Shown here: positions 1-43,282 of the stretch, in pieces
Layout: the number at the start of each line of letters is the position of its first letter
How positions within the stretch are numbered: position 1 is the first letter of the stretch
Origin: a virus
DNA length: 43,282 nt
Strand: one strand, 5' to 3'
Virus genome (UHGV): UHGV-0369400
Made by a program: the position numbers and the translations under genes
The notes under the pieces: model-generated
What the model saw: the letters and a program-made list of their open reading frames with translations, nothing else
Database searches by the model: none
What the model was told of the DNA's origin: nothing

Positions 1-1
1 G

Positions 2-595
2 GCAGACGGTAAACTGACAGCAAGCAGCGGATCATTTACAGGTGATGTGGTGGCGAACAGTTTCAAAACCAATGATGGAAGTATTACATTGGCAAATGGA
101 AAACTGAAGATTACCGGTGCAGAAATTGATGGAACTGCAAATACAAGTTCCATCGGTGCGAGTACGATTTACACAAACCATCTGGAAGTTGGAGGTAATG
201 CGGTATTTAATTCAGGAGCGGATTTTTCAGGAGCGATTAACTGCCAAAATATCGATGCTAATCGAATAAGCTGTGTAAGCGTTTATTCATCAATGGCTGG
301 GGAAACCTGGTCAGACAGAAGATTAAAGCATGACATCAGAGATGTTCATGAAAAGCTTGCTGTAGAAGTGATAAAAGGGCTGCGGCCGGTAGCCTATGCA
401 CTGAATGTAAACGATGCGGAAAGCCTGGGATTTATTGCACAGGAAGTAAAAAAAATGTGTGCAGATCTGGGCACGGAAATGCCATTGTATACTAAAAATG
501 GTAAATACTATTCCATCCCGTACATAAATTACATCCCGGTTATAGTAAAGGCATTGCAATTTATCCTGCGGAAAGTGGAGGTTGATCATGGCTAA
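2..595 (+). CDS. Tail fibre / tail-associated protein, C-terminal part (5'-truncated at window start). Carries a Peptidase_S74-like intramolecular chaperone auto-processing domain.
   Basis: The frame is open from nt 2 with no upstream stop. The motif WSDRRLKHDI...LRPVAY...GFIAQEV...SIPYINYIPVIVKALQ matches the autocleaving chaperone domain of phage tail fibres and endosialidases. It is in phase with the open frame that ends at 43282. Confidence 0.7.
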   Translation, partial: ADGKLTASSGSFTGDVVANSFKTNDGSITLANGKLKITGAEIDGTANTSSIGASTIYTNHLEVGGNAVFNSGADFSGAINCQNIDANRISCVSVYSSMAGETWSDRRLKHDIRDVHEKLAVEVIKGLRPVAYALNVNDAESLGFIAQEVKKMCADLGTEMPLYTKNGKYYSIPYINYIPVIVKALQFILRKVEVDHG

Positions 596-779
596 GGTAG
601 AGTACAAAAAAGAGGATATCCAGCTTTTAACAGCACTACTTAATATGGTGGCTGTAAAAGGATTTGACAATATAAAGCTTATGGCACAGGCTGCGGCTAT
701 CCTTGAAAGTGGAATCGTTAAAGAAATCCCGGAAAAACCACAGCAGTCCGGAAAGGAAGCAAAGAATGAAGCTGAGTGA
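588..779 (+). CDS. Hypothetical small protein (63 aa).
   Basis: ATG at 588 lies 7 nt after GGAGG. It overlaps the end of the upstream gene. Confidence 0.4.
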   Translation: MAKVEYKKEDIQLLTALLNMVAVKGFDNIKLMAQAAAILESGIVKEIPEKPQQSGKEAKNEAE

Positions 780-4300: not shown

Positions 4301-5542
4301 TTATTGCGCGTGTTGCATTTCGTGTTGCATAGCTTCCAAAACAGCTTTTTTCCATCCCTCCGGATCTTCTTTTTTCAGCCGGTTCACAACTTCTTTTATG
4401 GATTCTTTTTCGCTTTTTTCGGTTCCCACGATGCTCTCAAAGTAGCTGTCAATTTTATCATCAACCTTTTGCCGCTCCGACGAAAATGTCTGCATGTAGA
4501 CCTTTTTCATGACAGCATCCGACTTCCAGCCACCGCGCTCCTGGGCGTATTTGTCTGGTATTTGCAGCAAGGCCATAACGGAGGCATTGAGGTGCCGCAG
4601 ATCGTGAAACGTGATAGGGTCCTTTATACCGTGGATTTTTTGCAAGCGTTTCCAGCGGTGGTGCAGTGAAACGTCAGTCATCGGCACCAGTACATCTCCA
4701 GGAACCTTGTCGATCAGACCTTTTATATAAGCCGGTATTTTGTGTTTGCGTTTTCTCGTGTTGTTCTTCGCTGTCTCTTTTCTTACAGCTTTTCCTTTTA
4801 CGGTAATGACAGTCTCTTTTATTGTTATGTAATCACCATTAATTGATTTGGATTTTGTAAGACCGCGGATCTCCGATGCTGTGAACGACAGCCACATTGC
4901 AAGCAGCACCGGCAGCTCCATTTCGGTGCCGCGTACTATATCCATTACTGTTTTTGCATCTGGCAGGTCAACCATTCTTTGCGTTGGCGTAGGTAATTGC
5001 AGATTGTCGGTGCGGATGTTTGTGTATTTGTGCAGCACAGAGGATACAAACCCCCATTCATTTTTCAGCCGCTTTGCTGTAAGGGTCTTACCCGGCTTTC
5101 CGTTGACAGGTCTCTGCGCTTCTTTGGCTATGGCGTTTTGCAGTAGATCTTCCGATATGTCACACAGGCGCATGTTAAAAAGATCCTGGAACCCGTTCCG
5201 CATGATACACTCATAGTCTTCTATGGTGGACGGAGACCTTTTCAATGTTCTGCACAGATCTATATATTTTTCTGCCGCCCCTCTAAGCGTCATATTCGCC
5301 TCTTGGTTGCGCCTTTCCGCTTCACGTGAATCTTTCTCTGCCATGTATTGTGCAGCTGCCAATTCGACCCGTTTGCGCCCTTTGATTGACGGGTCATCAT
5401 CTGTAAAGGACTGATATATTCTTTTTTGTTTTGGTTTTCCGTTTTGCATGACGGGTGTTCCGTCTGGATTTAAGACAGGCTCGTAGTGGTCAAACACTAG
5501 TACACGCCATGATCCTGAGGGTAATTTTTTTGCTTTTGCCAT
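4301..5542 (-). CDS. int: Tyrosine-type phage integrase (414 aa from the ATG at 5542).
   Basis: C-terminal catalytic region: HDLRH...GGWKSDAVMKKVYM gives the R..H..R..Y signature. RBS AAAGGAG precedes the ATG at 5542. The gene lies between attP and the repressor module. Confidence 0.85.
   Translation of the reverse strand: MAKAKKLPSGSWRVLVFDHYEPVLNPDGTPVMQNGKPKQKRIYQSFTDDDPSIKGRKRVELAAAQYMAEKDSREAERRNQEANMTLRGAAEKYIDLCRTLKRSPSTIEDYECIMRNGFQDLFNMRLCDISEDLLQNAIAKEAQRPVNGKPGKTLTAKRLKNEWGFVSSVLHKYTNIRTDNLQLPTPTQRMVDLPDAKTVMDIVRGTEMELPVLLAMWLSFTASEIRGLTKSKSINGDYITIKETVITVKGKAVRKETAKNNTRKRKHKIPAYIKGLIDKVPGDVLVPMTDVSLHHRWKRLQKIHGIKDPITFHDLRHLNASVMALLQIPDKYAQERGGWKSDAVMKKVYMQTFSSERQKVDDKIDSYFESIVGTEKSEKESIKEVVNRLKKEDPEGWKKAVLEAMQHEMQHAQ
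4309..4332. repeat. Direct repeat CGTGTTGCATTTCGTGTTGCATAG, second copy (right arm). It overlaps the stop of int.
   Basis: Identical to 4104-4127. Confidence 0.5.
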
Positions 5543-5621
5543 AGTCGCACACTCCTTTTTGGGTATAAAAAATACAGCCACCAGATTTTTACATATTTTA
5601 TCTTGCGTGACTGCCTGGAAA

Positions 5622-5660
5622 TGTGATATTATACGGGTGTAGGTTTGCGATAATATCACA
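5622..5660. promoter_or_regulatory. 11-bp perfect inverted repeat (TGTGATATTAT ... ATAATATCACA) upstream of int. Candidate operator.
   Basis: Perfect dyad with a 17-bp spacer in the int 5' region. Confidence 0.3.
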
Positions 5661-5699
5661 CTCCTAAAACGTCTGGTGTTGGTAGCGCCGGGCGTTTTT

Positions 5700-6149
5700 T
5701 TATTTGTTGTTGGATACTTTGTTTATGATCGCATTTTGCATTTCTTCCGGATTTTGCATTTTAGGGAAACGGTACACTCCGGTTACAGCACTGATTTGGA
5801 TCGTTCCGTACTTCAAAATCCTTCCCAGCACGCTGTGCGTTAAATTTACAGTGTTAACTTGGTTTAGCGGCATAGTTAAGGACTTTGTCTTTACGATTCC
5901 GGTTCTTCCAAAGACTCTTTTATCAGTCAAGATCAAAATCATTGCTTTAAGCCTTATAATCGGGACAAGCGATAACAGAAAAATGACAAAAAATGTCAAA
6001 TTGGAACTTACACTGCTGCTTGTATTTGTTAAGTCTGTCGCAAACAAAAGAAAAAAGAAAATCGCTACAATGGAAGGCACAACAAACGCGATCCAGTGCG
6101 GCTTGCATTGATATATAGTTTTTTCGTCAGGATTCAATTTCAGCTTCAT
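5700..6149 (-). CDS. Membrane protein with a bacterial PH (bPH_2 / DUF304-like) domain. Typical prophage lysogeny-module gene, possibly superinfection exclusion.
   Basis: Two N-terminal TM helices followed by a PH-like domain (ILTDKRVFGRTGIVKT...). It is linked operonically with the ImmA-like and repressor genes. Confidence 0.5.
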   Translation of the reverse strand: MKLKLNPDEKTIYQCKPHWIAFVVPSIVAIFFFLLFATDLTNTSSSVSSNLTFFVIFLLSLVPIIRLKAMILILTDKRVFGRTGIVKTKSLTMPLNQVNTVNLTHSVLGRILKYGTIQISAVTGVYRFPKMQNPEEMQNAIINKVSNNK

Positions 6150-6583
6150 AATACTCCCCCTACTTTTTTGAATTTTAAGAAATTTTCTGCGTATCCGGTT
6201 AATGCGGATAGCTGCGCTAAAGTAAAACCTGGATGATCCAGCACAACACTGTCCGGTACAAGCAGCTCAACAGCAAAAGTGTTAGCTTCGATCTCTGCAC
6301 GGTTCCGGTGCAAGCTGTCCGGCATCCAGTTAAAAAAGAAGTAATCTTCCTGATGCATTACGGCGTGACCCAGCTCATGGGCCGCAACCATCTTTTGTGT
6401 AGACTTATCCAGATCGCTGTTTATATAAATGAAGCGTTCACCCGCTATGGTTAAACAGCATCCGTATATCTTACCCAAAGGGCCAACCTGTGTATATACT
6501 CCCAGATGATTGGCGAGATCAATGGGGTCATTTGTATGATACATATTTGATAGCTCTGCGGCTGTCCTTTTTGCATCTATCAT
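6146..6583 (-). CDS. immA: ImmA/IrrE-family zinc metallopeptidase (anti-repressor protease).
   Basis: HEXXH motif (AAHELGHAVMH). It lies immediately downstream of the XRE repressor with a 4-nt overlap. Confidence 0.75.
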   Translation of the reverse strand: MIDAKRTAAELSNMYHTNDPIDLANHLGVYTQVGPLGKIYGCCLTIAGERFIYINSDLDKSTQKMVAAHELGHAVMHQEDYFFFNWMPDSLHRNRAEIEANTFAVELLVPDSVVLDHPGFTLAQLSALTGYAENFLKFKKVGGVL

Positions 6584-6594
6584 ATTTACCTCTC

Positions 6595-6978
6595 CTATTT
6601 TTTACGTTGCTTTGCAATAAAAGCAACAGAAATCTTGATCTGGTCGAGCAATAAGTTTATGCTCTCCTGATCTACGGGCTGACCGTCAAAATATAACGGT
6701 GTCACTTCTCCGCTTTTTAACATTTTCTCAAGACGGTTAAACTCATCTTTTAGATCTATTGGTTTTTCTTCTGCAACGGCATCTTCCTCCTCCCCTGTTA
6801 TTAGATAGTCAACAGATACGCCCAAAAAATCGGCAATCTTTTTGAGCTTATCCTGTTTCGGTGTATATCTTCCGGCTTTCCAGTTACTAAGAGTCGATGT
6901 AGAAATTCCGGTTCCCTTACACACGCGGTAAGGTGTTACACCTTTTTCAGAGCATAACTTTTCAAATAAACTATACAT
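6595..6978 (-). CDS. XRE-family HTH repressor (cI-like, 127 aa).
   Basis: HTH_XRE signature (TGISTSTLSNWKAGRYTPKQDKLKKIADFLGVSVDYL) followed by a C-terminal extension. It is divergent from the cro-like gene. Confidence 0.8.
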   Translation of the reverse strand: MYSLFEKLCSEKGVTPYRVCKGTGISTSTLSNWKAGRYTPKQDKLKKIADFLGVSVDYLITGEEEDAVAEEKPIDLKDEFNRLEKMLKSGEVTPLYFDGQPVDQESINLLLDQIKISVAFIAKQRKK

Positions 6979-7008
6979 AGTTCACACCTCAAAAATAAGT
7001 TTGAAAAA

Positions 7009-7016
7009 TTAGCTAA
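7009..7016. promoter_or_regulatory. Palindrome TTAGCTAA, copy 1 (candidate operator half-site), immediately upstream of the PR -35.
   Basis: Self-complementary 8-mer present twice in the switch region. Confidence 0.35.
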
Positions 7017-7022
7017 AATCTG

Positions 7023-7051
7023 TTGACAAACTTTGCAATCAATGCTATACT
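7023..7051 (+). promoter_or_regulatory. Rightward sigma-70-type promoter (TTGACA, 17 bp, TATACT) reading toward cro.
   Basis: Near-perfect consensus with 17-bp spacing. Confidence 0.7.
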
Positions 7052-7068
7052 CTGGACATAGCTTCGAT

Positions 7069-7108
7069 TTCCAATATAACTTTGTTCGACGACTTTATTA
7101 TATTGGAA
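7069..7108. promoter_or_regulatory. 11-bp perfect inverted repeat (TTCCAATATAA, 18-bp spacer, TTATATTGGAA). Candidate operator overlapping the leftward -10.
   Basis: Perfect dyad lying between the two promoters. Confidence 0.45.
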
Positions 7109-7125
7109 ATCTTAGCTAATGTCAA
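7097..7125 (-). promoter_or_regulatory. Leftward sigma-70-type promoter on the minus strand (TTGACA, 17 bp, TATAAT) reading toward the repressor gene.
   Basis: The reverse complement of 7097-7125 is TTGACATTAGCTAAGATTTCCAATATAAT, a perfect consensus. Confidence 0.65.
7112..7119. promoter_or_regulatory. Palindrome TTAGCTAA, copy 2, within the spacer of the leftward promoter.
   Basis: Identical to the copy at 7009-7016. Confidence 0.35.
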
Positions 7126-7142
7126 TAGGTATTTGAGAAAGG

Positions 7143-7352
7143 ATGGTGAAAATGTACAGCAAATACGCAGAATTAAGAGATAAAGCAGGCATTACTGACT
7201 ATGAGGTCGCAAAAAAGACAGGCGTTTCCACATCGACTCTTAGCAACTGGAAAGCTGGCAGATATACGCCGAAAGCTGACAAAATCCAGAAGATCGCTAC
7301 ATATTTCGGTGTCGGAATTGAGACCCTGCTGGAAGGAGATAAGGGGAGGTGA
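7143..7352 (+). CDS. cro: Cro-like XRE-family HTH regulator (69 aa).
   Basis: HTH_XRE signature (TGVSTSTLSNWKAGRYTPKADKIQKIATYFGV). First gene of the rightward early operon. Confidence 0.75.
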   Translation: MVKMYSKYAELRDKAGITDYEVAKKTGVSTSTLSNWKAGRYTPKADKIQKIATYFGVGIETLLEGDKGR

Positions 7353-7618
7353 AGAAAGTGAATAAGCAACCAGTTATTACCATTGAAAGTGCTGGGAAGT
7401 CAACAAGGGTTAAATTCCTTGGAATTGATATCAGCAAAGCACTGACAAAAATATCATATTCCGCTGACGGTATTGATAGCTTTGTAGAAATGAAAATTGA
7501 TAATATGCGACTTTTAGATATCCTGTGCGATATCAACGAAGAAGATATTAAAAAAGCACAGTCAATCCTTGCACCATACAAAGAAAGCCGTGCTCATTTC
7601 AATGAGATTATTCATTAG
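7349..7618 (+). CDS. Hypothetical early protein (89 aa; alternative GTG start at 7358).
   Basis: ORF preceded by GGAGGTG. Confidence 0.45.
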   Translation: MKKVNKQPVITIESAGKSTRVKFLGIDISKALTKISYSADGIDSFVEMKIDNMRLLDILCDINEEDIKKAQSILAPYKESRAHFNEIIH

Positions 7619-7823
7619 ACTTAGAAATTAAGGATAGTAATTTGTCAGATAAAGAAACTGTTTGTAATATATCTTGACTAATCACTATATATCCCATTTT
7701 TTGGAGTTCTTTAAGGCATGCATTTTCAAGTGCAGTAAACGATGTTGTGTCAAACGAATTAACACCTGTTTCGTTAAAACTTGATACAAGTTTTTTTAAG
7801 ACGTTTTCTTGTGCGATATTCAT
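7608..7823 (-). CDS. Hypothetical protein (71 aa) encoded antisense within the early region.
   Basis: GAAAGGAA RBS before the ATG (revcomp of 7824-7840). Non-repetitive sequence. Confidence 0.4.
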   Translation of the reverse strand: MNIAQENVLKKLVSSFNETGVNSFDTTSFTALENACLKELQKMGYIVISQDILQTVSLSDKLLSLISKSNE

Positions 7824-7936
7824 TAAAACATTCCTTTCTACTATTTATCAGGATACGGCACATCCTGTTTAAGCAAGGATAGCATAATAAAAAGCAAAAA
7901 TCAACTATACAGAACAAAACATGAGGAGGTGATAAA

Positions 7937-8116
7937 TTGTCAAAAATGTATAACTGCGGAGAAATCGCAGAGAGATACAGCGTAAAGATAATTACGGTGT
8001 GGGAGTGGATCAGAAAGAAGAAACTCCCAGCGATCCGCATTGGTAAAGAATATCGGATTTCCGAGGATGATCTTAAAGCATTCGAGGATTCACGAAGAAC
8101 AACAGGAAGGTTGTGA
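7937..8116 (+). CDS. xis: Excisionase-family HTH DNA-binding protein (59 aa, TTG start).
   Basis: AGGAGG lies 8 nt before TTG 7937. Sequence ...MYNCGEIAERYSVKIITVWEWIRKKKLPAIRIGKEYRISEDDLKAFE matches the excisionase / MerR-like HTH pattern. Not in the ORF track because it is under 60 aa. Confidence 0.5.
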   Translation: MSKMYNCGEIAERYSVKIITVWEWIRKKKLPAIRIGKEYRISEDDLKAFEDSRRTTGRL

Positions 8117-8125
8117 GAAAGGCAA

Positions 8126-8362
8126 GTGAGAAAAATGAAAGCATCTAAATACGACGGGATGTCGTACGGGGAAATTTTAAGCGAAATTGCAAAGCCTACT
8201 TTTTCGCATGGGAAAGAGGCGCGGCAAGCGCATAAAGCGTTGAGAAAGTACCACGATGGACTTCCACTTTATGCAAGATATCCAGATTTACCCTACTTGA
8301 TGTGTGCATTTGCAGGTGGATTTTCTGCCGCGACTGTGGCCATTTGTTTTTTATCAATGTAA
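8126..8362 (+). CDS. Hypothetical protein (78 aa).
   Basis: ORF only. Confidence 0.3.
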   Translation: MRKMKASKYDGMSYGEILSEIAKPTFSHGKEARQAHKALRKYHDGLPLYARYPDLPYLMCAFAGGFSAATVAICFLSM

Positions 8363-9204: not shown

Positions 9205-9903
9205 ATGTGTAGATTTAAGAGCGGAATTATCTTGAAAAACAAAATCGTAATTGCGCCAGAAGATAATGAAAGCCATTCCGATTTGCTGAAAATCCTCGGA
9301 ATTAAGGACGATTACATAGGCGCATCAAAAACCTTTGTTCGGGCTGAACTGGTACCGAAAAAAGATGATGAGTGGTGGATTGATCCGGAAGAAAAACCGG
9401 AGAAATGGGTGTTTGTCGTTGATCAAGATATAATTCCTGATTGGTTTGACAAAGAAACGCATGAGAAAGAGTTCCGCGAATCAGTATGCGACTGGTGGAG
9501 AAAGCATGTACTTGTTGACAAAAAGCTGGAAGAGCTGAAAACTGGTTTTTACCGGCTTAAACGCTGCGAAGTGAAAAAGTTGCTTAATGATGTACGCGTG
9601 ATGTTGGACAGCTCACAGGTCGGCGAGATGCGGGACAGCTCACAGGTCGGCGAGATGTGGGGCAGCTCACAGGTCGGCGAGATGCGGGGCAGCTCACAGG
9701 TCGGCGAGATGTGGGACAGCTCACAGGTCGGCGAGATGTGGGGCAGCTCACAGGTCGGCAAGATGTGGGACAGCTCACAGGTCGGCGAGATGTGGGACAG
9801 CTCAACCGCACGAGACTTTAAAAATTATCCGGTTATAAAAATCATGATTCCAGATGGTGGAAAATTTGAAATGGTTGTGCATAAAAACAAAGACGATGAA
9901 TAA
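9205..9903 (+). CDS. Hypothetical early protein (232 aa) with an internal nonapeptide tandem repeat, SSQVGEM(R/W)(D/G), in about 7 copies.
   Basis: GGAGG RBS. The repeat is encoded by near-identical 27-bp units. Confidence 0.55.
   Translation: MCRFKSGIILKNKIVIAPEDNESHSDLLKILGIKDDYIGASKTFVRAELVPKKDDEWWIDPEEKPEKWVFVVDQDIIPDWFDKETHEKEFRESVCDWWRKHVLVDKKLEELKTGFYRLKRCEVKKLLNDVRVMLDSSQVGEMRDSSQVGEMWGSSQVGEMRGSSQVGEMWDSSQVGEMWGSSQVGKMWDSSQVGEMWDSSTARDFKNYPVIKIMIPDGGKFEMVVHKNKDDE
9606..9806. repeat. 27-bp tandem repeat array (GGACAGCTCACAGGTCGGCGAGATGYG), about 7.4 copies.
   Basis: Units are nearly identical, differing only at 2-3 transition sites per unit. The array is GC-rich relative to its flanks. 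Confidence 0.85.
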
Positions 9904-41423: not shown

Positions 41424-41837
41424 ATGCAGAAAGACTATAGAGGTTATCTGGTAATGTTTGGGAACACACAGCTCCCAAACAGTTTCCTTACCCGGTACAG
41501 GTCAACACCGGACCAGCGAATAGAGAAAAAGGCTTGGCGAGATAATAATGAGTCCTTGCAGAGGGTGACCTCTCCTAATTTCAAAACGACTCTTAATCTG
41601 GAATTGAGACCATTATCCCAGAGGGAAAAGGATCTGTTTAATTCTATTAAGGCCAATGGCTTGCAGGATGCTACCCAAAAGAAGTACAGAGTGACCTACT
41701 GGAATTTAGATACATGTGTATATGGCACCGGTTCTTTTTATATCCCAGATACAGAGTTTGCTATTGACCACATAGCAGACAATGACACCGGTGAAATGTA
41801 CTATGAGAAAGTAACCATTGAAATGATCCAGTATTAA
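41424..41837 (+). CDS. Distal tail protein-like tail component (137 aa).
   Basis: Lies immediately after the tape measure. GGAGG RBS. Confidence 0.4.
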   Translation: MQKDYRGYLVMFGNTQLPNSFLTRYRSTPDQRIEKKAWRDNNESLQRVTSPNFKTTLNLELRPLSQREKDLFNSIKANGLQDATQKKYRVTYWNLDTCVYGTGSFYIPDTEFAIDHIADNDTGEMYYEKVTIEMIQY

Positions 41838-41849
41838 GGAGTGAAGCAG

Positions 41850-43282
41850 ATGATAGAGATCGATCAGGTTTATAAAGACCTGTTTAACGAATATGGTGGA
41901 AAAAGTCTTAAGCTGACTTTTTTTAAAGAAGAATATCATGCTCTATACCCGTCTGAAACACTGTATCCTTCAGAGGATTTATATCCTTCTGAAATGTCTG
42001 CGGACGCTGTGGATTTTTCCATAGAAGATGATCAGATAGTAACAGATTCCCTTGCCATTACAGAAAGCCTGTGTTCAGACGAAGATCTAAGCTTTGGATC
42101 GTGTGAGGCAGCCCAGTTTGAAATCACAGTAACGGGACTGACCCAGAGTATTTCAGGCCGCGAATTTATGGCTACAGAGTCATTTGGTGGCTATAACATG
42201 GTCCTGGGCTTGTTTAAAGTAGAGTCTACACCCAAGCAGGAAGACAAGAATACCAGAAAGATAATAGCCTATGACAGGATGCAGCGTTTTGATGTAGATG
42301 TGTCCGGTTGGTATAATGCATTGAGTTTTCCAATGACATTAAAAGCATTTCGTAAATCACTCTGTTCATTTGTAGGTGTGCGGGAAGAAAATGCAGTTCT
42401 TGTTAATGATGAAATGCAGGTAGAAAAGACCATAAATCCTACAGCTTTGAAAGGGCGGGAAGTACTGCAGCAGATCTGCCAGATCAATGGAGTATTTGGA
42501 AACATCAATAAGAACGGGGAACTGCGGTATATCGCACTTCCGGAAAAAGAGGATATATCCGCGCGGATCACAATCTATCAGAATGCCGAGAGTGAAGAGT
42601 ACACAGTTCCAGATATAGATACCGTACAGATCCGTCAGGAAGAAGGGGACATAGGCGGAACCAGCACAGGAGACGGTCAAAATGTTTATATCATTGAAGG
42701 AAACATGCTGGTATATGGCAAGACCACATCAGAGATGATAGGAATTGCCAATAACATTAAAAACGTCGTAAACGGTCTGGAATACCAGCCCGCAACCATA
42801 TCTACAAACGGTTCCCCGTGGATTGAAATAGGGGATAGGATCAGTCTGGAGACTACAGACGGGATAGTTAATACCCTTGTGATGAAAAGAACCTTTACGG
42901 GCATTCAGGGAGCTATGGACAGCTATGAAAGCACTGGAAGTCAGGAATTATCAAGACCTTTTAGCATTGAAAGTGAATTGATACAGATAAAAGGCTTATC
43001 TGCTATTCTTAAGCGATCTGTAGAAGAAATATCAAATGAACTTACCAATCTGGAAGAGGGAACCAATTCCAAGTTTATCCAGATGGCTAATCAGATTTCC
43101 CTGGAAGTTACGAGAGCTACCGGTCAGGAAGCAGAACTGAGATCAGCTATTAACGTAGTCAGTGATAAGATTGAACTGAAAGTCAGCCAGGGAGACGTAT
43201 CAAATCAGCTTTCGGTGGAAACCGGTGGGATCAGCATAAAAGGGAATCGTTTTAGCTGGAGTTCCACATATTCCTCTATGAC
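41850..43282 (+). CDS. Tail-associated protein (Tal / tail endopeptidase-like), 3'-truncated at the window end. Probably continuous with the ORF at 2-595.
   Basis: AAGGAG RBS before ATG 41850. No stop codon before the window end. The frame phase at 43282 matches the frame of the ORF that begins at nt 2. Confidence 0.6.
   Translation, partial: MIEIDQVYKDLFNEYGGKSLKLTFFKEEYHALYPSETLYPSEDLYPSEMSADAVDFSIEDDQIVTDSLAITESLCSDEDLSFGSCEAAQFEITVTGLTQSISGREFMATESFGGYNMVLGLFKVESTPKQEDKNTRKIIAYDRMQRFDVDVSGWYNALSFPMTLKAFRKSLCSFVGVREENAVLVNDEMQVEKTINPTALKGREVLQQICQINGVFGNINKNGELRYIALPEKEDISARITIYQNAESEEYTVPDIDTVQIRQEEGDIGGTSTGDGQNVYIIEGNMLVYGKTTSEMIGIANNIKNVVNGLEYQPATISTNGSPWIEIGDRISLETTDGIVNTLVMKRTFTGIQGAMDSYESTGSQELSRPFSIESELIQIKGLSAILKRSVEEISNELTNLEEGTNSKFIQMANQISLEVTRATGQEAELRSAINVVSDKIELKVSQGDVSNQLSVETGGISIKGNRFSWSSTYSSM

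What the first reader, a model, noticed from the sequence alone, without database searches (positions are those of the whole stretch)
6979..7142. Immunity switch with face-to-face, overlapping perfect-consensus promoters and nested palindromes
In the 164-bp region between the cI-like gene (minus strand) and the cro-like gene (plus strand) the rightward promoter is TTGACA-17-TATACT at 7023-7051. A leftward promoter on the opposite strand is TTGACA-17-TATAAT at 7125-7097. Each promoter lies next to the gene it does not express. The two transcripts therefore start about 30 bp apart and run through each other, a convergent arrangement as in coliphage 186 / P2 rather than lambda. This implies transcriptional interference as part of the switch. 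An 11-bp perfect inverted repeat (7069-7108) overlaps the leftward -10. The 8-bp palindrome TTAGCTAA occurs twice, once beside each promoter, and is a plausible operator half-site for the two XRE proteins.
Basis: seen in the sequence. Interest (0 to 1): 0.6.

Follow-up and report, generated by a model that had tools for sequence, protein, structure and literature searches.

The report
Face-to-face promoter switch of gut phage
This is the lysis/lysogeny control region of a temperate phage of gut Lachnospiraceae, in which the lytic and lysogenic promoters point at each other instead of away from each other; the layout is shared by the whole phage family, resembles coliphages P2/186, and has already been predicted once in related prophages.

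Summary
The only two near-perfect sigma-70 promoters in the 43-kb window lie between the repressor and cro genes and face each other. PR is TTGACA-17-TGcTATACT at 7023-7051 (+). PL is TTGACA-17-TATAAT at 7125-7097 (-). The predicted starts are about 32 nt apart.

The layout is conserved. Of 45 distinct repressor-homologue loci with promoters called on both strands, 44 are face-to-face, with a typical overlap of 55-85 nt.

The "nested palindromes" are copies of a 20-bp pseudo-palindromic operator, TAnnTTnG-N4-CnAAnnTA:
- OA, 6996-7015
- OB, 7028-7047, inside the PR spacer
- OD, 7059-7078
- OE, 7099-7118, inside the PL spacer

TTAGCTAA is only the outer end of two of these operators. The half-site covaries with the repressor's recognition helix.

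The window is an atypical variant. A 33-bp deletion between operator repeats removed the best operator (OC), which every relative examined keeps, and halved the promoter spacing. The OD/OE inverted repeat also folds as a hairpin in the cro leader, with strand-specific wobble evidence.

The repressor is followed by an ImmA-type metallopeptidase. So this combines P2/186 promoter topology, a lambda-like CI/Cro paralogue pair and an ImmR/ImmA-like gene order. Transcriptional interference is plausible but untested.

The parts
6595..6978 (-). Immunity repressor (cI/ImmR-like), 127 aa. N-terminal XRE helix-turn-helix plus a short C-terminal region.
   Evidence: Pfam HTH_3 at 2.9e-11, with no Peptidase_S24 hit. 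Present as the identical protein in many metagenome contigs.
6146..6583 (-). ImmA/IrrE-type metallopeptidase (HELGH motif), immediately downstream of the repressor on the same strand. Presumed anti-repressor protease.
   Evidence: Pfam Peptidase_M78 at 1.2e-14. The same gene order is seen in the relatives.
5700..6149 (-). Membrane protein with a bacterial PH domain, in the same leftward gene block. Variable cargo: other relatives carry a 221-aa ORF in its place.
   Evidence: Pfam bPH_2 at 2.2e-9. Variable neighbours are shown.
7152..7352 (+). Cro-like protein, 66 aa, a paralogue of the repressor's DNA-binding domain. An alternative upstream ATG at 7143 lacks proper Shine-Dalgarno spacing.
   Evidence: HTH_3 at 1.4e-14. 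It is 56% identical to the repressor over 64 aa, with an identical stretch STSTLSNWKAGRYTPK. Relatives are called as 66-71 aa.
7023..7051 (+). PR, the lytic (rightward) promoter: TTGACA, 17 bp, TATACT, with an extended -10 TG at 7043-7044. Predicted start about 7058.
   Evidence: Conserved as TTGAC[AT]-17-TAnnnT in relatives.
7097..7125 (-). PL, the lysogenic (leftward) promoter: TTGACA (7125-7120), 17 bp, TATAAT (7102-7097). Predicted start about 7090. It is the only credible promoter upstream of the repressor gene.
   Evidence: Conserved in relatives found by protein similarity alone. No terminator-like site lies between it and the repressor gene.
6996..7015 (+). Operator OA, TAAGTTTG-AAAA-ATTAGCTA, upstream of the PR -35. 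It contains the first TTAGCTAA.
   Evidence: Position-weight-matrix score 16.1. Present at the same place in relatives.
7028..7047 (+). Operator OB, AAACTTTG-CAAT-CAATGCTA, filling the PR spacer from the last base of the -35 to the second base of the -10. It carries a window-specific A>C change at 7036.
   Evidence: Matrix score 19.6 here against 22.7 in the closest relative. The point difference is shown in the alignment.
7059..7078 (-). Operator OD (on the minus strand TATATTGG-AAAT-CGAAGCTA). In this window it sits at PR +1 to +20. It forms the left arm of the inverted repeat.
   Evidence: Matrix score 22.7; inverted repeat.
7099..7118 (+). Operator OE, TATATTGG-AAAT-CTTAGCTA, filling the PL spacer and overlapping the PL -10. 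It forms the right arm of the inverted repeat and contains the second TTAGCTAA.
   Evidence: Matrix score 20.0. Present in all relatives collected with the DNA anchor pattern, which itself contains OE.
7059..7118 (+). Hairpin at the 5' end of the predicted PR (cro) transcript, made by OD and OE: a 14-bp perfect core inside 21-nt arms, with an 18-nt loop that contains the predicted PL start.
   Evidence: Minimum free energy -24.9 kcal/mol, z = -3.07. 89.5% of cells are paired across 21 relatives, three pairs show double changes, and wobbles favour the + strand. The plus strand is more structured than its complement in 38 of 45 family members.
7058..7064 (.). ATAGCTT, the junction of a 33-bp deletion relative to all relatives. 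The deletion removed operator OC (TAGCTTTGAAAGCAAAGCTA) and 13 bp of spacer.
   Evidence: Alignment A2. All 10 contigs with the identical repressor have a 206-bp spacer. The junction was not found in IMG/VR or JGI metagenomes, whereas the long form gave 6 hits.
7077..7084 (+). Isolated half-site TAACTTTG in the hairpin loop. In some relatives it is the left half of a sixth, weaker operator.
   Evidence: It changes to TAACTTAG in lineages whose operators use TTAG.

Best explanation
This is the immunity (lysis/lysogeny) switch of a temperate Lachnospiraceae phage.

Shown from the sequence and its relatives:
- Two near-consensus sigma-A promoters face each other. PR, next to the repressor gene, reads rightward into cro and the early genes. 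PL, next to cro, reads leftward through PR into the block repressor - ImmA-like peptidase - membrane protein.
- The first ~32 nt of the two predicted transcripts are complementary in this window. In the normal form of this phage the overlap is about 65 nt.
- The region is tiled with a 20-bp pseudo-palindromic site, TAnnTTnG-N4-CnAAnnTA. One copy fills each promoter's spacer (OB in PR, OE in PL). OA lies upstream of PR. OD lies at PR +1 to +20, which is PL +12 to +31.

Inferred:
- The repressor and Cro share an identical recognition helix, so both probably bind these sites with different preferences.
- Repressor bound at OA, OB and OD (and at OC in relatives) shuts PR. As in coliphage 186, this also relieves interference on PL.
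- Cro, by analogy with Cro, Apl and Cox, shuts PL at OE and OD.
- After the ImmA-like protease inactivates the repressor, PR fires, and RNA polymerases crossing PL reinforce the switch by transcriptional interference.
- The OD/OE inverted pair additionally forms a stem-loop in the cro leader RNA, which may act as an mRNA stabiliser or a processing site.

In this window a recombination between operator repeats deleted OC and placed OD exactly in OC's position. The promoter spacing was halved, so the two polymerase footprints (about 7003-7078 and 7070-7145) now overlap.
For: Promoters:
- They are the only two matches of 11/12 or better in the window.
- Orientation and near-consensus hexamers are kept in 33 distinct spacer variants from IMG/VR, Lachnospiraceae and Roseburia genomes, and ENA/Logan contigs.
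- In a test that did not depend on any DNA anchor, 45 distinct upstream regions of repressor homologues had promoters of at least 10/12 on both strands. Of these, 44 are face-to-face.
- The PR -10 hexamer varies (TATACT, TAATAT, TATTAT, TATAGT) but always keeps TAnnnT.
- The cultured Ruminococcus gnavus phage phiRgPS_6 has the same layout.

Operators:
- The four best matrix hits in the 43 kb all lie in the spacer.
- The seed palindrome, which is absent from this window, still matches four spacer sites with at most 6 mismatches.
- Spacings of 32, 31, 33 and 40 bp are conserved in relatives.
- The half-site reads TTTG/CAAA where the repressor helix is ...NWKAGRY. It reads TTAG/CTAA where the helix is ...SWKQGKY or NWK[TN]GKY.

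Proteins: repressor and Cro are 56% identical over 64 aa with an identical helix region. A Peptidase_M78 gene follows the repressor.

Hairpin.

Precedent: in P2-like phages the promoters are face-to-face, 40-60 bp apart, with the repressor operators over the lytic promoter (PMC7498355).
Against: - No transcription start site, binding assay or reporter measurement exists for this phage or any relative found. Promoter function, operator occupancy and interference are all inferred.
- The 33-variant set was collected with a DNA pattern that includes PL and OE. PL conservation within that set is therefore partly by construction; one search is the independent test.
- The loci are phylogenetically related, so a count such as 44 of 45 overstates the number of independent observations.
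- Which protein prefers which operator cannot be read from the sequence.
- Both promoters are near consensus, so the direction and size of any interference is unknown.
- Part of the strand asymmetry that supports an RNA hairpin could reflect composition.
Confidence: 0.72

Rival explanations
1. PL does not make the repressor mRNA. It makes a short antisense or regulatory RNA against the cro leader, comparable to antisense control in other mobile elements. The repressor would then be expressed from a weak, repressor-activated promoter close to its own gene (lambda PRM-like, back-to-back with PR) that consensus scans cannot see.
For: Any PL transcript is by geometry antisense to the first ~32 nt of the PR transcript, or about 65 nt in relatives. 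Activated promoters often lack a good -35 and would fall below the 9/12 threshold used.
Against: No terminator-like site lies between 7090 and 6979 on the minus strand, so PL transcripts should run into the repressor gene. Only 17 bp separate the repressor start codon from OA, and PR occupies the rest, leaving no room for an independent core promoter. No leftward candidate of 9/12 or better exists there. PL is conserved at consensus strength across the family, which fits a main promoter.
Confidence: 0.1
2. The 21-nt inverted repeat is selected mainly as an RNA hairpin in the cro leader (an mRNA stabiliser, an RNase III site or a translational control element), and is not a pair of protein-binding sites.
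For: - Hairpin z = -3.07.
- Compensatory double changes occur at three pairs.
- There are 26 G.U cells against 13 A.C cells, and most A.C cells come from four rows shifted by one base.
- Among near-identical contigs, the only polymorphisms in the left arm (CC, CT, TG at 7071-7073) are wobble-compatible on the + strand only.
- The plus strand is more structured than its complement in 38 of 45 family members.
- In L009 a 1-nt shift breaks operator register but leaves a bulged stem.
Against: Both arms score as good copies of the same 20-bp motif found at OA, OB and OC. The right arm is also constrained by the PL -10 and spacer. TT mismatches are common in the middle of the stem. The left arm is missing or differently oriented in several relatives (L101, L103, L105, L108). 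The two roles are not mutually exclusive.
Confidence: 0.35
3. The arrangement in this window is not a working switch. It would be a repressor-insensitive (virulent-type) operator mutant, or an assembly artefact: the 33-bp loss of the best operator plus the A>C change in OB would disable repression of PR.
For: The deletion junction is absent from IMG/VR and JGI metagenomes, while the long form is found repeatedly. The window differs from its closest relative in the spacer only by these two operator changes. The window is a circularly closed phage genome without host flanks, consistent with a replicating phage.
Against: The deletion is an in-register exchange between equivalent positions of OC and OD. 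A good operator (score 22.7) now sits exactly where OC was, and the OB-to-next-operator spacing of 31 bp is preserved. The repressor, peptidase and integrase genes are intact. Another lineage (L062) naturally has a predicted start spacing of 31 nt, and L108 also carries C at the equivalent operator position. The junction lies between 7-bp direct repeats, as expected for a real recombination event.
Confidence: 0.15

Closest known systems
P2-like coliphage switches (186 pR/pL with CI and Apl; P2 Pe/Pc with C and Cox)
   Same: [quoted passage not shown] The repressor sites lie over the lytic promoter, and further sites lie between the starts and over the lysogenic promoter. The expected consequence is transcriptional interference that is relieved when the repressor shuts the lytic promoter.
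   Different: The hosts and proteins are unrelated. Here the lytic regulator is an XRE Cro that is a paralogue of the repressor and probably shares its operators; it is not a Cox/Apl excisionase with direct-repeat sites. Each promoter has an operator inside its spacer. Induction is presumably through an ImmA-type protease. Both promoters are near consensus, whereas 186 has a strong pR and a weaker pL. The host is Gram-positive and uses sigma-A.
ImmR/ImmA modules (Bacillus subtilis ICEBs1 and similar prophages), including the Clostridium clostridioforme LM41 prophages phi5 and phi12
   Same: The gene order is HTH repressor, then ImmA/IrrE metallopeptidase, then (cargo) and integrase on one strand, with a second HTH gene diverging. 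For LM41 phi5 and phi12, convergent promoters were predicted in this kind of spacer and 186-like interference was suggested (PMC11318856). That is essentially the same idea in the same bacterial family.
   Different: ICEBs1 PimmR and Pxis are described as divergent. The repressor here shows no detectable similarity to the solved ImmR DNA-binding domain at E <= 1e-3. The LM41 note rests on a promoter predictor for two prophages. It gives no operators, no conservation analysis and no experiments.
Lambdoid CI/Cro switches (lambda, 434, P22)
   Same: A repressor and a small Cro with the same fold and recognition surface act on a shared set of pseudo-palindromic operators between two divergently oriented genes.
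   Different: Lambdoid promoters are back-to-back (PMC7498355). The repressor here has no LexA-like S24 autocleavage domain. The operators are 20 bp, spaced about three helical turns apart, and number five in the normal form.
pLS20 Pc/Pr (Bacillus conjugative plasmid)
   Same: It is a Gram-positive mobile-element switch in which the promoters of divergent genes interfere physically.
   Different: In pLS20 the two core promoters coincide (the -35 of one is the -10 of the other) and the transcripts diverge (PMC4207663). Here the cores are separate and the transcripts cross.

Membership tests
P2/186-type face-to-face lysis-lysogeny switch | Lytic and lysogenic promoters convergent, with crossing transcripts and starts tens of bp apart | tested here: met
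   Tested at sequence level only. PR is 7023-7051 (+) and PL is 7125-7097 (-); predicted starts are about 32 nt apart here and 31-176 nt (mostly 55-85) in 44 of 45 relatives. Start sites are not mapped.
P2/186-type face-to-face lysis-lysogeny switch | Primary repressor operators lie over the lytic promoter | tested here: met
   OA, OB and OD (plus OC in relatives) span PR from about -62 to +20. Binding itself was not tested.
P2/186-type face-to-face lysis-lysogeny switch | The lytic-side regulator is a Cox/Apl-type excisionase that binds direct repeats | tested here: not met
   The first rightward gene is an XRE HTH_3 protein 56% identical to the repressor's DNA-binding domain. The sites are pseudo-palindromes, not 10-11-bp direct repeats.
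P2/186-type face-to-face lysis-lysogeny switch | Repressor homologous to 186 CI or P2 C | tested here: inconclusive
   Pfam Phage_CI_repr (PF07022) scores 28.6 bits, above its cut-off of 22, but below the generic HTH_3 score of 43.7 bits. This is helix-turn-helix-level similarity only.
P2/186-type face-to-face lysis-lysogeny switch | Measured transcriptional interference between the two promoters | not testable with these tools
   Needs reporter fusions with cis promoter knock-outs.
ImmR/ImmA regulatory module (ICEBs1 type) | HTH repressor gene followed on the same strand by an ImmA/IrrE (Peptidase_M78, HExxH) gene, with the integrase further on | tested here: met
   6595-6978 is HTH_3; 6146-6583 is Peptidase_M78 with HELGH; the integrase is at 4301-5542.
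ImmR/ImmA regulatory module (ICEBs1 type) | Repressor related in sequence to ICEBs1 ImmR | tested here: not met
   A search of the PDB, which holds the ImmR DNA-binding domain (PMC8960796), returned only DBP48 and ComR at E <= 1e-3. The best NCBIfam hit was RstR, below its cut-off.
ImmR/ImmA regulatory module (ICEBs1 type) | Divergent (non-crossing) PimmR and Pxis promoters | tested here: not met
   The promoters here are face-to-face. ICEBs1 is described as divergent in PMC11318856.
ImmR/ImmA regulatory module (ICEBs1 type) | The protease cleaves the repressor on induction | not testable with these tools
   A biochemical assay is needed.
Lambdoid CI/Cro switch | Back-to-back PRM and PR promoters | tested here: not met
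   No leftward promoter candidate lies between the repressor gene and PR. PL lies beyond PR.
Lambdoid CI/Cro switch | Repressor with a LexA-like S24 autocleavage C-terminal domain | tested here: not met
   There is no Peptidase_S24 hit. The protein is 127 aa with only about 60 aa after the helix-turn-helix domain.
Lambdoid CI/Cro switch | Repressor and Cro compete for the same operators | tested here: inconclusive
   The two proteins share an identical 16-residue recognition region, and there is a single operator family. Binding was not tested.

The most novel reading that the evidence does not exclude
Lachnospiraceae ImmA-type phages may have evolved a P2/186-like convergent-promoter switch independently. 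In it, two consensus-strength promoters, a shared CI/Cro operator set and a selected leader-RNA hairpin together would give a largely polymerase-driven, mutually exclusive bistable core. This window would be a natural 33-bp operator-deletion variant in which the two polymerase footprints overlap, turning interference by collision into direct competition for promoter occupancy.
Probability: 0.25. Interest if true: 0.65.

Novelty: new variant of a known kind. Interest (0 to 1): 0.48.

Why it matters
Face-to-face lysis/lysogeny promoters have been dissected experimentally almost only in P2-like coliphages. A conserved, sequence-defined version built from unrelated parts would show that the design evolved more than once. 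Those parts are a CI/Cro paralogue pair, an ImmA-type protease and Gram-positive sigma-A promoters. The operators, promoters and natural spacing variants (173-bp and 206-bp spacers, a PR-deleted relative, overlaps of 31-176 nt) provide a ready-made set of constructs for testing how transcriptional interference contributes to prophage stability and induction in abundant human-gut Firmicutes. The practical value is modest: better prediction of immunity groups and induction behaviour of gut prophages.

Tried and rejected
- DNA similarity search of 5700-7700 against 50,697 phage records found no match. Relatives had to be found by protein similarity and by a DNA pattern.
- No Rfam family matches in 6500-7700.
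- I tested for a distal operator that could support looping. A palindrome at 6607-6626 (TTGCTTTGCAATAAAAGCAA) at the 3' end of the repressor gene looks operator-like. It is present only where the protein is identical and is absent from L002, L003 and all other relatives. I rejected it as a conserved element.
- A possible third promoter, TGGACA-16-TATAAC at 7053-7080 (+), was created by the deletion. I rejected it because it lacks the invariant final T of the -10 and has no counterpart in relatives (reading).
- I looked for a lambda PRM-like leftward promoter between 6979 and 7060 and found none at 9/12 or better.
- The window has no direct terminal repeat, but a 679-aa ORF runs across the end-to-start junction.
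- The idea that OD is present only when cro is present is not clean. L101 keeps an OD-like site in the other orientation, and several cro-bearing loci have OD shifted by 1 nt.
- pLS20 was considered as an analogue and set aside, because its cores coincide and its transcripts diverge.

Full report
**What is in the sequence**

Between the leftward repressor gene (6595-6978) and the rightward cro-like gene there are two near-perfect sigma-70/sigma-A promoters.
- PR is TTGACA (7023-7028), 17 bp, TATACT (7046-7051) on the + strand, with an extended -10 TG at 7043-7044.
- PL is TTGACA (7125-7120), 17 bp, TATAAT (7102-7097) on the - strand.

They are the only matches to TTGACA-N17-TATAAT with at most 1 mismatch in the 43,282-bp window, where 0.34 are expected for the whole window. 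No other candidate above 9/12 lies in 5600-8200. PR lies next to the repressor gene and PL next to cro, so the predicted transcripts start at about 7058 and about 7090 and cross over about 32-33 nt.

TTAGCTAA occurs twice, only here. The inverted repeat is longer than reported: a perfect 14-bp core inside 21-nt arms, 7059-7079 and 7098-7118. cro most probably starts at 7152 (66 aa, as called in relatives), which makes the spacer 173 bp.

**Gene context**

- The repressor is a 127-aa XRE helix-turn-helix protein without a LexA-like domain.
- It is followed on the same strand by a Peptidase_M78 (ImmA/IrrE) gene with an HELGH motif, then a membrane protein with a bacterial PH domain, then a tyrosine integrase.
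- Cro is 56% identical to the repressor's DNA-binding domain over 64 aa. The two share an identical 16-residue stretch, STSTLSNWKAGRYTPK, covering the recognition helix.
- The window is a circularly closed phage genome: a 679-aa ORF runs across its ends and there are no host flanks.
- Relatives sit in Lachnospiraceae and Roseburia genomes.
- The nearest cultured phages are Ruminococcus gnavus phiRgPS_6 and Anaerostipes phages.

**Conservation of the face-to-face layout**

Relatives found by protein similarity in IMG/VR, by a DNA pattern in GTDB genomes and by exact-protein look-up gave 33 distinct spacer variants with the same layout. That set was anchored on a pattern that contains PL, so I repeated the test without any DNA anchor.

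Among 61 distinct upstream regions of repressor homologues, 45 had promoter candidates of at least 10/12 on both strands. Of these, 44 were face-to-face, with predicted overlaps of 31-176 nt, mostly 55-85. The single exception, L006, is a deletion variant that has lost PR altogether.

The PR -10 hexamer varies between lineages (TATACT, TAATAT, TATTAT, TATAGT, TACTAT) but always keeps TAnnnT. That is the signature of selection for promoter function. phiRgPS_6 shows the same arrangement with different operators. These counts are not phylogenetically independent, but many lineages with different operators and spacings are represented.

**What the 'nested palindromes' are**

All close relatives carry, just downstream of the PR -10, a perfect palindrome TAGCTTTG-AAAG-CAAAGCTA that the window lacks. 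Using it as a seed, the spacer resolves into copies of a 20-bp pseudo-palindrome, TAnnTTnG-N4-CnAAnnTA:
- OA, 6996-7015
- OB, 7028-7047
- OD, 7059-7078, inverted
- OE, 7099-7118
- OC, present in relatives between OB and OD

The four best matrix hits in the whole window are these four sites. Everything else scores in the range of shuffled sequence.

OB runs from the last base of the PR -35 to the second base of the PR -10, and OE fills the PL spacer and overlaps the PL -10. Each promoter therefore has an operator in its core. Centre-to-centre spacings of 32, 31, 33 and 40 bp are conserved in relatives.

The half-site covaries with the repressor's recognition region. It reads TTTG/CAAA where the helix is ...NWKAGRY, including the separate L043 lineage. 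It reads TTAG/CTAA (TAAG in L092) where the helix is ...SWKQGKY or NWK[TN]GKY. This is the best available evidence that these sites are the operators.

TTAGCTAA is therefore not an operator. It is the outer end of the right half of OA and of OE, and the first copy is not conserved as a palindrome in relatives. The '11-bp dyad' is OD and OE in inverted orientation.

**The window is a deletion variant**

Aligned with contigs that encode the identical repressor, the window's spacer differs by a 33-bp gap and one A>C change at 7036 in OB. The gap removes OC plus 13 bp and lies between two ATAGCTT repeats.
- All 10 exact-protein contigs have the 206-bp form.
- The deletion junction is absent from IMG/VR and from JGI metagenomes, while the long-form junction has 6 hits.
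- The exchange is in register, so OD now sits exactly where OC was and the 31-bp spacing from OB is kept.
- The deletion halves the distance between starts from about 65 nt to about 32 nt.

Taking an RNA polymerase footprint of -55 to +20 (general knowledge), the two footprints overlap in the window by about 9 bp (7070-7078). In the long form they do not overlap. Whether the variant is neutral, more compact or repressor-insensitive cannot be decided here. L062 shows that a spacing of about 31 nt exists naturally elsewhere.

**RNA level**

The predicted PR leader starts with a long hairpin made by OD and OE (minimum free energy -24.9 kcal/mol, z = -3.07). The PL leader is unremarkable (z = -0.46).

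Across 21 relatives 89.5% of cells pair, and three pairs show changes on both sides. Non-Watson-Crick cells are mostly G.U on the + strand: 26 against 13 A.C, and most A.C cells come from four rows shifted by one base. Among near-identical contigs, the only left-arm polymorphisms are compatible with wobble pairing on the + strand only.

Over 45 family members, the segment from the PR start to the PL -35 has a mean z of -4.5 on the + strand and -3.2 on its complement. The plus strand is the more structured in 38 of 45. Palindromic operators explain structure on both strands. The strand asymmetry suggests additional selection on the cro leader RNA. Its role (stabiliser, RNase III site or translational control) is unknown.

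**Mechanism proposed (inferred)**

- Lysogen: PL makes the repressor, the peptidase and the cargo protein. The repressor occupies OA, OB and OD (and OC in relatives) and blocks PR. As in coliphage 186, this also removes interference on PL. The bound repressor lies in the path of PL transcription, which could give negative autoregulation.
- Induction: the ImmA-like protease inactivates the repressor and PR fires. Polymerases crossing PL, together with Cro binding at OE and OD, shut PL down.
- The complementary 5' ends of the two transcripts could add an antisense component.

None of these steps has been measured.

**Comparison with what is known**

The topology matches P2-like phages, in which the promoters are face-to-face, 40-60 bp apart, with the repressor operators over the lytic promoter. 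In lambdoid phages the promoters are back-to-back and the repressor and Cro share operators (PMC7498355). Here P2-like topology is combined with a lambda-like CI/Cro paralogue pair and an ImmR/ImmA-like gene order.

It is not a member of the P2 family: the lytic regulator is not of the Cox/Apl type and the proteins are unrelated. It is also not a close relative of ICEBs1 ImmR.

A 2024 survey of Clostridium clostridioforme LM41 prophages already reported predictor-based convergent promoters in two ImmR/ImmA-like modules and suggested 186-like interference (PMC11318856). The idea is therefore not new for this bacterial family. What is added here is family-wide conservation, the operator model with specificity covariation, the leader hairpin and the natural deletion variants.

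**Verdict**

This is a real and conserved feature. It is best classed as a new variant of a known kind, of moderate interest, with a clear experimental path.

Noticed in passing
window 7058-7064 and 7036: The window's switch differs from every relative with the identical repressor in two ways. A 33-bp in-register deletion removed the best operator (OC), and there is an A>C change in the spacer of operator OB. The deletion junction was not found in IMG/VR or JGI metagenomes.
   Followed up: yes
L006 (IMGVR_UViG_3300034415_000045), spacer upstream of the repressor: Compared with its near-twin L008, this contig has lost the whole PR promoter through recombination between operators OA and OC. PL and the repressor remain. 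It may be a prophage locked in lysogeny, or a defective one.
   Followed up: partly
L101, L103, L105, L108: In these Lachnospiraceae loci the same repressor, PR, PL and OE are present, but the first rightward gene is not a helix-turn-helix Cro. It is a different protein (MMEKKRLREMTWEDYG...), and L105 carries a large insertion between the promoters.
   Followed up: no
window 9596-9804 (inside ORF 9205-9903): A 27-bp tandem repeat of 7.7 copies, 93% matching, encodes repeated SSQVGEM(W/R)(D/G) units in an early-region protein of unknown function.
   Followed up: partly
window 6607-6626: An operator-like palindrome, TTGCTTTGCAATAAAAGCAA, lies at the 3' end of the repressor gene, about 390 bp from OA. 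It is not conserved outside the clade with the identical protein, so it is probably a chance match.
   Followed up: yes
window 5666-5698: A strong terminator-like hairpin on the + strand (15 pairs followed by a T-run) lies between the integrase and the membrane-protein gene. It could stop rightward read-through from the lysis/attP side. On the minus strand it is weaker, so whether the integrase is part of the PL operon is unclear. The integrase probably starts at ATG 5542 (413 aa, as in relatives).
   Followed up: partly
window 1-600 and 41800-43282: A 679-aa open reading stretch (tail-fibre-like) runs across the end-to-start junction of the window. The sequence is therefore a circularly closed or permuted complete phage genome without host DNA and without a terminal repeat.
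   Followed up: yes
window 5700-6149 versus L110, L111, L112: The slot between the peptidase gene and the integrase is variable cargo. Here it holds a bPH_2 membrane protein, and other contigs with the identical repressor hold an unrelated 221-aa ORF. These may be superinfection-exclusion or moron genes.
   Followed up: no
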